64,000 bases of DNA, taken from NCBI RefSeq assembly GCF_013315695.1, contig NZ_CP054353.1. One strand, given 5' to 3'. Under the pieces are notes generated by a model. That model worked only from the letters and a program-made list of their open reading frames with translations, ran no database searches and was not told the DNA's origin. Position 1 is the first letter of the stretch; each line of letters starts with the position of its first letter. Shown here piece by piece: positions 1,569 to 1,645 of the stretch. Made by a program: the position numbers and the translations under genes. Source of the stretch: Escherichia coli (lineage in GTDB: Bacteria; Pseudomonadota; Gammaproteobacteria; Enterobacterales; Enterobacteriaceae).

Positions 1569-1582
1569 TTGCGCGAAATCAA
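1569..1582 (-). promoter_or_regulatory. Putative FNR half-site pair (TTGAT-N4-CGCAA on minus strand) upstream of fdnG
   Basis: Motif read in fdnG-yddG divergent intergenic region about 70 nt upstream of fdnG start; fdnG is known to be FNR/NarL activated. Confidence 0.35.
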
Positions 1583-1629
1583 AAAGAACACGTGTTTGCC
1601 ACAAAATAATCCGCCTGCGCAAATTGACC

Positions 1630-1645
1630 TACCTCAATAGCGGTA
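1630..1645. promoter_or_regulatory. Putative NarL 7-2-7 heptamer pair (TACCTCA-AT-AGCGGTA)
   Basis: Inverted heptamers resembling TACYYMT consensus about 60 bp upstream of the putative FNR site. Confidence 0.3.

What the first reader, a model, noticed from the sequence alone, without database searches (positions are those of the whole stretch)
1569..1645. Candidate FNR and NarL sites in the fdnG-yddG divergent region
Seen: TTGAT-N4-CGCAA (minus strand, 1569..1582) and a TACCTCA-AT-AGCGGTA inverted heptamer pair (1630..1645), spaced as expected for FNR at about -42 and NarL at about -100 relative to a start site roughly 30 nt upstream of the fdnG ATG. Established: fdnGHI is anaerobically induced by FNR and nitrate-induced by NarL.
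Basis: partly seen in the sequence, partly recalled or inferred. Interest (0 to 1): 0.3.

Follow-up and report, generated by a model that had tools for sequence, protein, structure and literature searches.

The report
Known fdnG FNR and NarL sites
The two short DNA motifs are real. They are the already characterised oxygen-sensor (FNR) and nitrate-sensor (NarL) binding sites that switch on the E. coli formate dehydrogenase-N operon, so this is a correct but ordinary rediscovery.

Summary
TTGAT-TTCG-CGCAA lies on the minus strand at 1569..1582, and TACCTCA-AT-AGCGGTA lies at 1630..1645, in the 231-bp gap between fdnG (minus strand, ATG at 1504) and yddG (plus strand, ATG at 1736).

The region is 99% identical to E. 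coli K-12, and both sites are unchanged. If the FNR site is placed at its published -42.5, the start site falls at 1533, 29 nt before the ATG. The two heptamers then centre at -100 and -109, as published. The published -77 and -124 heptamers are also found (1607..1613 and 1654..1660).

Motif matching alone is weak evidence. FNR-like matches with up to 2 mismatches occur 59 times in the window against 39 expected by chance.

Conservation is decisive. In 55 other Enterobacteriaceae species fdnG is preceded by TTGATTTnnCGCAA. A 7-2-7 NarL-type inverted repeat lies exactly 62 bp further upstream in 42 of 48 distinct non-Escherichia sequences.

Verdict: interpretation supported, already known, low interest.

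One item is outside the textbook description. A second FNR-like motif at 1624..1637 scores better, is found only in Escherichia, and overlaps the NarL site. A published genome-wide study (Myers et al. 2013) assigned its FNR ChIP-seq peak at this locus to that motif.

The parts
1569..1582 (-). FNR binding site of the fdnG promoter, TTGAT-TTCG-CGCAA. Its centre at 1575.5 corresponds to -42.5 (class II position).
   Evidence: Read and identical to K-12. The -42.5 position is stated in PMC3349551. TTGATTTnnCGCAA is present once upstream of fdnG in all 55 other species. It scores 10.4 bits, rank 7 of 63,987 in the window.
1630..1645 (.). NarL/NarP 7-2-7 inverted heptamer pair, centre -104.5. The -100 heptamer is TACCTCA on the plus strand (1630..1636). 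The -109 heptamer is TACCGCT on the minus strand (1639..1645).
   Evidence: Read and identical to K-12. Heptamers at -100 and -109 are given in PMC3349551. fdnG is listed as a 7-2-7 promoter in PMC2718512. A 7-2-7 match lies exactly 62 bp from the FNR centre in 42 of 48 distinct non-Escherichia sequences.
1607..1613 (+). Single NarL-type heptamer TAATCCG, centre -77 (5 of 7 to TACYYMT).
   Evidence: Located from the published -77 position on the sequence. It overlaps a block that is conserved in other genera (gAcTATTwaG).
1654..1660 (+). Single NarL-type heptamer CACCACT, centre -124 (5 of 7 to TACYYMT).
   Evidence: Located from the published -124 position on the sequence. It is not conserved outside Escherichia.
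1542..1550 (-). Extended -10 element TGTTAGTTT (TGn + TAGTTT), at -17..-9 from the inferred start.
   Evidence: It forms a conserved island cTGtTAGTTT at a fixed distance downstream of the FNR site in the anchored alignment of 54 distinct sequences. It was not picked up by the strict sigma-70 consensus scan.
1533..1533 (-). Inferred fdnG transcription start (+1), 29 nt upstream of the ATG.
   Evidence: Inferred by arithmetic from the published -42.5 FNR position. It was not measured here, and I estimate an uncertainty of 1-2 nt from the spacing to the -10 element.
1..1504 (-). 5' part of fdnG, the regulated gene. The ATG is at 1504..1502, the Shine-Dalgarno GAGG is at 1511..1514, and TGA (Sec196) is at 917..919.
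   Evidence: Translation, ORF list, and RefSeq annotation of identical DNA.
1624..1637 (.). Second FNR-like motif, TTGAG-GTAG-GTCAA on the fdnG strand. Its centre is at -97.5, 55 bp upstream of the first site, and it overlaps the -100 NarL heptamer. Its function is unknown.
   Evidence: Found. It scores 15.8 bits, rank 1 in the window, after being left out of the matrix training set. Myers et al. Table S6 lists it as the predicted FNR site at yddG/fdnG, and their ChIP-seq summit (window 1620) is 10.5 bp from its centre. It is present only in Escherichia.

Best explanation
This is the characterised control region of the E. coli fdnGHI (formate dehydrogenase-N) operon. It is an activator-dependent promoter reading leftwards on the minus strand.

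Under anaerobiosis an FNR dimer binds the imperfect inverted repeat at 1569..1582. This site overlaps the -35 region (centre -42.5, class II), and FNR recruits RNA polymerase to an extended -10 element (TGnTAGTTT, 1542..1550).

When nitrate is present, phosphorylated NarL binds as a dimer to the 7-2-7 inverted heptamers at 1630..1645 (centre -104.5). That is 62 bp, or about six helical turns, upstream of FNR, so the two proteins sit on the same face of the DNA. Weaker single heptamers at -77 and -124 assist, and NarL raises FNR-dependent initiation.

Shown here: the motifs, their identity to K-12, and their position-specific conservation across Enterobacteriaceae.

Taken from the literature: protein binding, the start site, and the anaerobic and nitrate dependence.

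Inferred: the same-face geometry. Also inferred is that the invariantly non-consensus CGCAA half-site keeps FNR binding weak enough for expression to depend on NarL.
For: The sequence was read directly.

The region is present in 5413 of 5426 complete E. coli genomes and is annotated fdnG | yddG. This 231-bp intergenic allele was 100% identical in 36 of 60 evenly spaced ranks of 5415 matching records. It is 99% identical to K-12 with both sites unchanged.

The published positions -42.5 and -77/-100/-109/-124 (PMC3349551) reproduce exactly when mapped onto the window. fdnG is a classic 7-2-7 promoter. An FNR ChIP-seq peak at yddG/fdnG is classed as 'activated by FNR in NO3- and by NarL'. The Fnr ChIP-chip signal rises from 6.2 under fermentation to 106.7 under nitrate respiration, with fdnGHI activated.

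Phylogenetic footprint:
- All 55 species found by the fdnG-start scan carry TTGATTTnnCGCAA. One, L057, has CTCAA in place of CGCAA.
- The anchored alignment shows four conserved islands: FNR, the extended -10, a block at -79..-69, and the 7-2-7.
- The 7-2-7 consensus has 3 or fewer mismatches at exactly 62 bp in 42 of 48 distinct sequences, against 0.11% of background positions. The mismatch profile has a single sharp minimum there, 2.8 against about 9.
- The FNR-to-ATG distance varies from 67.5 to 216.5 bp, yet the FNR-to-NarL and FNR-to-(-10) distances stay fixed.
- Within Escherichia the only variable positions inside the sites are the FNR spacer base 1575 and the seventh base of the -109 heptamer, 1639.
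Against: The FNR site is a moderate match. It has 2 mismatches, and such matches are common in the window. It is missing from the high-confidence predicted list of Myers et al., whose ChIP-seq summit lies 44.5 bp from it and nearer a second motif.

The primary papers that mapped the start site and mutated the sites (Li & Stewart 1992; Li, Kustu & Stewart 1994; Darwin et al. 1996, 1997; Wang & Gunsalus 2003) could not be read here. Positions therefore rest on one secondary source plus my recollection.

The -10 hexamer sits at -14..-9 relative to the inferred +1. That is 1-2 nt further upstream than usual, so the exact +1 is uncertain.

The species in the footprint are related, so the counts are not independent events.
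Confidence: 0.93

Rival explanations
1. Tandem FNR sites with FNR/NarL competition. The second motif at 1624..1637 (-97.5) would also be bound by FNR in vivo when nitrate is absent. It might damp the promoter, as the upstream site does at yfiD. NarL-phosphate binding to the overlapping 7-2-7 would then displace FNR, so that nitrate induction is partly relief of that effect. This would add to the textbook mechanism rather than replace it.
For: The motif is the best FNR-matrix hit in the whole 64-kb window, at 15.8 bits, after being left out of training. Myers et al. list it (PatSer 14.43) as the predicted site under their ChIP-seq peak. Their summit, from cells grown without nitrate, maps to window 1620, which is 10.5 bp from this motif and 44.5 bp from the -42.5 site. 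The averaged ChIP-chip peak centre of Federowicz et al. (1545328, window 1601) lies between the two motifs. Their 55-bp spacing resembles the two yfiD sites, which are 53 bp apart in the same table. The motif overlaps the -100 heptamer by 7 bp, so FNR and NarL could not both occupy it.
Against: The motif exists only in Escherichia. None of the 48 distinct sequences from other genera has it. Its left half is the NarL heptamer itself, so only GTCAA (1624..1628) is free to vary, and too few diverged Escherichia sequences are available to test that. The centre at -97.5 is off-phase for class I activation. ChIP resolution cannot separate sites 55 bp apart. No paper in the searchable library discusses the motif.
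Confidence: 0.2
2. The sites mainly regulate the divergent gene yddG (aromatic amino acid exporter) rather than fdnG.
For: yddG is the divergent neighbour in 53 of 55 species, and the distance from the 7-2-7 to the yddG ATG is also roughly constant at about 90-97 bp. A passable sigma-70 promoter, CTGACA-18-TATAAA, lies at 1663..1692 (read).
Against: The FNR site has a fixed spacing to a conserved extended -10 element that points towards fdnG. The two loci without yddG (L009, L053) still keep the FNR site and the -10 element. Federowicz et al. report fdnGHI as activated and yddG as not differentially expressed. Myers et al. assign the peak to fdnG (Table S9).
Confidence: 0.05
3. Chance consensus matches with no function.
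For: FNR-like matches with 2 mismatches are frequent, 59 in the window against 39 expected. 7-2-7-like matches are not significantly enriched, 6 against 3.25.
Against: Position-specific conservation across 55 species while the flanking sequence diverges. Exact agreement with published positions. Published in-vivo FNR occupancy.
Confidence: 0.01

Closest known systems
E. coli K-12 fdnGHI promoter (FNR at -42.5; NarL heptamers at -124, -109, -100, -77; 7-2-7 at -104.5)
   Same: It is the same locus. Identity across the intergenic region is 99% and both sites are base-for-base identical. All published positions map exactly.
   Different: There are three substitutions at -84, -59 and -58, all outside the named sites. 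The window carries the allele most often sampled among E. coli genomes, whereas the K-12 allele was sampled less often.
nirB promoter of E. coli (FNR at -41.5 plus a NarL/NarP 7-2-7 site at -69.5)
   Same: It is a class II FNR promoter whose activity is raised by NarL bound to an upstream 7-2-7 site. nirB is listed with fdnG among the 7-2-7 promoters, and FNR sits at -41.5.
   Different: Here the 7-2-7 site is 35 bp further upstream, at -104.5. From my own knowledge, NarP activates nirB but not fdnG, and at nirB NarL acts by counteracting IHF and Fis (also stated).
narG promoter of E. coli (FNR at -41.5, IHF, multiple NarL heptamers from -80 to -200)
   Same: Nitrate respiration partner operon, co-activated by FNR and NarL bound far upstream.
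   Different: narG lacks a 7-2-7 site and needs IHF-mediated bending. No IHF requirement is known for fdnG, and I found none here.
yfiD promoter of E. coli (tandem FNR sites at -40.5 and -93.5; the upstream one down-regulates)
   Same: Two FNR-type motifs about 53-55 bp apart upstream of one promoter (for the coordinates; title of Green et al. 1998 as cited).
   Different: At fdnG the upstream motif overlaps a NarL site, is restricted to Escherichia, and has no experimental support beyond the position of a ChIP-seq summit.

Membership tests
Class II FNR-activated promoter | 14-bp inverted repeat resembling TTGAT-N4-ATCAA | tested here: met
   TTGAT-TTCG-CGCAA matches 8 of 10 specified bases and keeps the TTG...CAA core. 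It scores 10.4 bits on an approximate matrix, rank 7 of 63,987. It is below the stringent published threshold.
Class II FNR-activated promoter | Site centred near -41.5/-42.5, overlapping the -35 region, at a fixed distance from a -10 element | tested here: met
   The site centre is 28.5 bp upstream of the first base of a conserved TGnTAGTTT element, and this spacing is kept in the anchored alignment of 54 distinct sequences. The published position is -42.5. The start site itself was not measured here.
Class II FNR-activated promoter | FNR occupancy in vivo or in vitro | not testable with these tools
   Literature only: a ChIP-seq peak at yddG/fdnG and ChIP-chip regions in K-12, whose sites are identical. 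Resolution does not separate this site from the motif at 1624..1637.
Class II FNR-activated promoter | fnr-dependent anaerobic induction of the downstream operon | not testable with these tools
   Literature: fdnG is 'activated by FNR in NO3- and by NarL' and fdnGHI is 'Activation, Known'.
NarL/NarP 7-2-7 binding site | Two TACYYMT heptamers in inverted orientation separated by 2 bp | tested here: met
   TACCGCT-AT-TGAGGTA matches 6 of 7 plus 6 of 7. Six such matches occur in 64 kb against 3.25 expected.
NarL/NarP 7-2-7 binding site | Position upstream of the promoter it controls conserved in orthologous promoters | tested here: met
   3 or fewer mismatches at exactly 62 bp from the FNR centre in 42 of 48 distinct non-Escherichia sequences, against a background of 0.11%. 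The sequence of the repeat differs between genera while TA...TA and the spacing are kept.
NarL/NarP 7-2-7 binding site | Binding of phosphorylated NarL and narL-dependent nitrate induction | not testable with these tools
   Literature: fdnG is named among the four 7-2-7 genes, and titles of the footprinting and mutational papers are cited. The primary texts are not held.
Tandem FNR sites (yfiD type) | Second FNR-type inverted repeat about 50-55 bp upstream of the class II site | tested here: met
   TTGAG-GTAG-GTCAA lies at 1624..1637, 55 bp upstream, and scores 15.8 bits, rank 1 in the window.
Tandem FNR sites (yfiD type) | Upstream site occupied by FNR and affecting expression | tested here: inconclusive
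   The ChIP-seq summit is 10.5 bp from it. ChIP cannot resolve 55 bp, and no mutational data were found.
Tandem FNR sites (yfiD type) | Upstream site conserved in orthologous promoters | tested here: not met
   It is present only in the Escherichia sequences and absent from all other genera.

The most novel reading that the evidence does not exclude
In Escherichia the fdnG control region would hold two FNR sites. The stronger one, at -97.5 (1624..1637), overlaps the -100 NarL heptamer. FNR and NarL-phosphate would then compete for the same DNA, and part of the nitrate induction of fdnGHI would come from NarL displacing an unproductive or inhibitory upstream FNR dimer. This layer would be specific to Escherichia and sit on top of the ancestral FNR(-42.5)/NarL(-104.5) design.
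Probability: 0.15. Interest if true: 0.35.

Novelty: already known. Interest (0 to 1): 0.08.

Why it matters
It matters little as a discovery. These sites were mapped and mutated in K-12 in the 1990s and are in the standard regulatory databases.

The check does have some value:
- It shows that the FNR-NarL module, its 62-bp spacing and even the non-consensus CGCAA half-site are conserved across Enterobacteriaceae. That pattern argues for selection on a deliberately weak FNR site that makes expression depend on NarL.
- It flags that a widely used genome-scale FNR data set attributes its peak at this locus to a different motif, one that overlaps the NarL site, rather than to the classical site.

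Tried and rejected
- The strict sigma-70 promoter and terminator scan of 1400..1850 found nothing. That is expected for an activator-dependent promoter with a TAGTTT -10, so I did not use it as evidence.
- Simple consensus counting showed that motif matches alone are not significant, so I moved to conservation.
- I tried to read the primary papers: Li & Stewart 1992 by PubMed id and by a guessed PMC id, Wang & Gunsalus 2003 (PMC180993), Lin & Stewart 2010 (PMC3068693) and Darwin et al. 1998 (PMC107417). None is held.
- The MotifAdjuster supplements do not mention fdnG.
- A search for 'fdnGp' returned nothing.
- A search for an FNR ChIP-exo data set covering fdnG returned nothing. The Federowicz et al. 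data turned out to be ChIP-chip, with regions too broad to separate the two FNR motifs. Their Tables S5 and S6 show the same ArcA-like motif rows for this locus, so they give no FNR motif call here.
- I considered using the yddG neighbourhood to decide which gene the sites serve. The divergent arrangement is conserved in 53 of 55 species, so it does not discriminate.
- I considered position-by-position polymorphism statistics across all 5,400 E. coli genomes. The tools return one genome per call, so I sampled only four additional alleles.

Full report
**The observation.** I read window 1..2400 directly. The plus strand at 1569..1582 is TTGCGCGAAATCAA, which on the minus strand reads TTGAT-TTCG-CGCAA. 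The plus strand at 1630..1645 is TACCTCA-AT-AGCGGTA, which on the minus strand reads TACCGCT-AT-TGAGGTA.

**The flanking genes.** They are also as stated.
- The minus strand from 1504 downwards translates to MDVSRRQFFKICAGG..., with one in-frame TGA at 917..919. This is the twin-arginine leader and selenocysteine codon of FdnG.
- The plus-strand ORF 1736..2617 is yddG.
- Identical DNA in RefSeq E. coli genomes is annotated fdnG | yddG. The 401-bp query around the region matches 5413 of 5426 complete E. coli genomes.

**Is it more than chance?** Consensus matching alone says no for FNR and only weakly yes for NarL.
- TTGAT-N4-ATCAA with up to two mismatches occurs 59 times in the window against 38.8 expected from shuffles.
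- The 7-2-7 consensus with up to two mismatches occurs 6 times against 3.25 expected.
- I built an approximate FNR weight matrix from 62 ChIP-bound sites listed in Table S6 of Myers et al. 2013. With it the 1569..1582 site scores 10.4 bits, rank 7 of 63,987 positions. That is respectable but not outstanding.
- The site is absent from Myers' own high-confidence list, whose threshold is ln p of -10.75. The near-identical hcp site, TTGATTTAGCGCAA, passes that threshold.

**Identity with the characterised K-12 region.**
- The intergenic region aligns to K-12 MG1655 at 99% identity. The three substitutions are at window 1617, 1592 and 1591, and both candidate sites are unchanged.
- This 231-bp allele was 100% identical in 36 of 60 evenly spaced ranks among 5415 matching records. 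The K-12 allele forms a second group at 98.7%.
- Setting the centre of 1569..1582 (1575.5) to -42.5 gives +1 at 1533, which is 29 nt upstream of the ATG. The heptamers 1630..1636 and 1639..1645 then centre at exactly -100 and -109.
- At -77 and -124 the sequence holds weaker heptamers, TAATCCG (1607..1613) and CACCACT (1654..1660), each 5 of 7 to TACYYMT.
- fdnG is one of the four genes for which the 7-2-7 arrangement was originally reported (PMC2718512).
- In-vivo FNR occupancy of this intergenic region is on record. There is a ChIP-seq peak classed as 'activated by FNR in NO3- and by NarL' (PMC3688515). ChIP-chip regions have a signal of 6.2 under fermentation and 106.7 under nitrate respiration (PMC3974632).
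- I checked my conversion between old K-12 coordinates and window coordinates two ways. The reported start 1545292 of one motif reproduces, and the string TAGCATTTTTTTAAC lies at the expected place, window 1674..1688.

**Independent evidence from conservation.** A scan of one genome per species for a degenerate fdnG start (MDVSRRQFFKICA) returned 55 loci. They come from Citrobacter, Enterobacter, Salmonella, Leclercia, Kosakonia, Phytobacter, Silvania, Shimwellia, Yokenella, Trabulsiella, Pluralibacter, Pseudenterobacter and other Escherichia.
- Every locus has one copy of TTGATTTnnCGCAA upstream of fdnG (one has CTCAA). The non-consensus half-site is therefore itself conserved.
- An ungapped alignment anchored on that motif shows four conserved islands: the FNR site; cTGtTAGTTT at -18..-9, an extended -10; a block gAcTATTwaG at about -79..-69; and tA..cc....gg.gTA at -112..-97.
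- Among 48 distinct non-Escherichia sequences, the 7-2-7 consensus has three or fewer mismatches at exactly 62 bp from the FNR centre in 42. The background is 0.11% of other positions.
- The mean-mismatch profile has one sharp minimum there, 2.8 against about 9.
- The actual heptamer sequences differ between genera. For example, TAACCCATAAGGGTTA occurs in Enterobacter cloacae and TACCCCCTTATGGGTA in Citrobacter youngae. What is kept is the architecture, not inherited sequence.
- The distance from the FNR site to the ATG ranges from 67.5 to 216.5 bp because of insertions in the leader. The distances from FNR to the -10 element and from FNR to the 7-2-7 stay fixed.
- Within Escherichia the only variable bases inside the sites are the FNR spacer base 1575 and the seventh base of the -109 heptamer, 1639. 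The stretches between sites vary much more.
- The species are related, so these counts are not independent events. The pattern is nevertheless unambiguous.

**Mechanism.** The best-supported reading is the textbook one.
- FNR acts as a class II activator at -42.5 on a promoter with an extended -10 and no usable -35.
- NarL-phosphate binds as a dimer at the 7-2-7 site at -104.5. That is six helical turns upstream and so on the same face. The weak heptamers at -77 and -124 assist.
- Binding, start site and regulation are taken from the literature. From my own knowledge these are Li & Stewart 1992; Li, Kustu & Stewart 1994; Darwin et al. 1996 and 1997; and Wang & Gunsalus 2003. None could be opened here.
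- The geometry is my inference. So is the idea that the conserved weak half-site keeps the promoter dependent on NarL.
- The -10 hexamer lies at -14..-9 from the inferred +1, slightly further upstream than usual. The exact +1 may therefore be off by a nucleotide or two.

**One thing that is not in the textbook description.** A second FNR-like motif, TTGAG-GTAG-GTCAA, lies at 1624..1637. Its centre is at -97.5, 55 bp upstream of the first site, and it overlaps the -100 NarL heptamer.
- It is the best FNR-matrix hit in the entire window, at 15.8 bits, even though I left it out of the training set.
- Myers et al. list it, not the classical site, as the predicted FNR site at yddG/fdnG.
- Their ChIP-seq summit, from cells grown without nitrate, maps to window 1620. 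That is 10.5 bp from this motif and 44.5 bp from the classical site.
- The motif occurs only in Escherichia, and half of it is the NarL heptamer itself. It may therefore be a by-product of the local 7-2-7 sequence.
- It may instead be a real second site competing with NarL, in the manner of the tandem sites at yfiD.
- The data cannot decide. I give the functional reading about 15-20%.

**Rivals.**
- Regulation of yddG rather than fdnG is unlikely. The FNR site is tied to a -10 element that points towards fdnG. It persists in the two loci that lack yddG. Published expression data show fdnGHI, not yddG, responding.
- Chance is excluded by the conservation.

**Verdict.** The feature is already known, and interest is low. 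The extra FNR-like motif is the only point that might repay an experiment.

Noticed in passing
window 1624..1637: A second FNR-like motif (TTGACCTACCTCAA on the plus strand) overlaps the -100 NarL heptamer. It is the best FNR-matrix hit in the window and is found only in Escherichia. Myers et al. 2013 list this sequence as their predicted FNR site at yddG/fdnG, and their ChIP-seq summit maps 10.5 bp from its centre.
   Followed up: partly
window 1597..1612 (about -79..-64); loci L003-L057: A strongly conserved block gAcTATTwaG lies between the 7-2-7 and the FNR site in other genera. It reads as a degenerate 7-2-7 centred near -71.5 (mean 5.1 mismatches; 22 of 48 sequences have 4 or fewer). E. 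coli itself has diverged here (GGATTATTTTG) and keeps only the -77 heptamer. E. albertii is intermediate (GAACTATTTTG).
   Followed up: partly
window 1569..1582 and loci L003-L057: The non-consensus half-site CGCAA of the FNR site is invariant across 54 of 55 other species. This suggests selection for a sub-optimal FNR site rather than drift.
   Followed up: partly
L003, L007, L013, L015, L020, L022, L023 and others (Citrobacter), L036 and L039 (Salmonella), L014, L035: The fdnG leader between the conserved promoter and the ATG carries insertions. They are about 56 bp in many Citrobacter, about 48 bp in Salmonella arizonae and diarizonae, about 147 bp in Enterobacter wuhouensis and about 106 bp in Phytobacter diazotrophicus. 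I did not examine their content.
   Followed up: no
L009 (Shimwellia pseudoproteus), L053 (Enterobacteriaceae MAG): These two loci lack yddG upstream within the sequence held (only 328 bp of upstream sequence for L009). Their best 7-2-7 match lies only 39-40 bp upstream of the FNR centre (about -82) instead of 62 bp. This is a different NarL placement on the same FNR promoter.
   Followed up: no
window 1663..1692 and 1674..1688: A possible yddG promoter, CTGACA-18-TATAAA, lies on the plus strand. An ArcA-type motif (TAGCATTTTTTTAAC on the minus strand), reported under an ArcA/Fnr ChIP peak by Federowicz et al. 2014, overlaps it.
   Followed up: no
window 2875..3975 and about 4240..6725: Downstream of yddG this strain has an intact 366-aa porin gene (annotated ompC in the identical RefSeq genome) and leucine-rich-repeat protein genes. 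K-12 has only the short yddL there.
   Followed up: no
window about 18440..24260: There is an island with a type VI secretion vgrG gene, an ISEc1 (ISAs1-family) transposase, a hypothetical gene and a frameshifted ISAs1 transposase, between yncH and pptA. This comes from the annotation of the 100%-matching strain FDAARGOS_497.
   Followed up: no
window 7985..7998: GTGACGTTGATCAA inside narU, upstream of narZ, is the third-best FNR-matrix hit in the window. The same sequence is listed by Myers et al. as a predicted FNR site that is not bound in ChIP-seq.
   Followed up: no
window 917..919: An in-frame TGA in fdnG is the selenocysteine codon (Sec196). It makes the mechanical ORF list split the gene.
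   Followed up: yes
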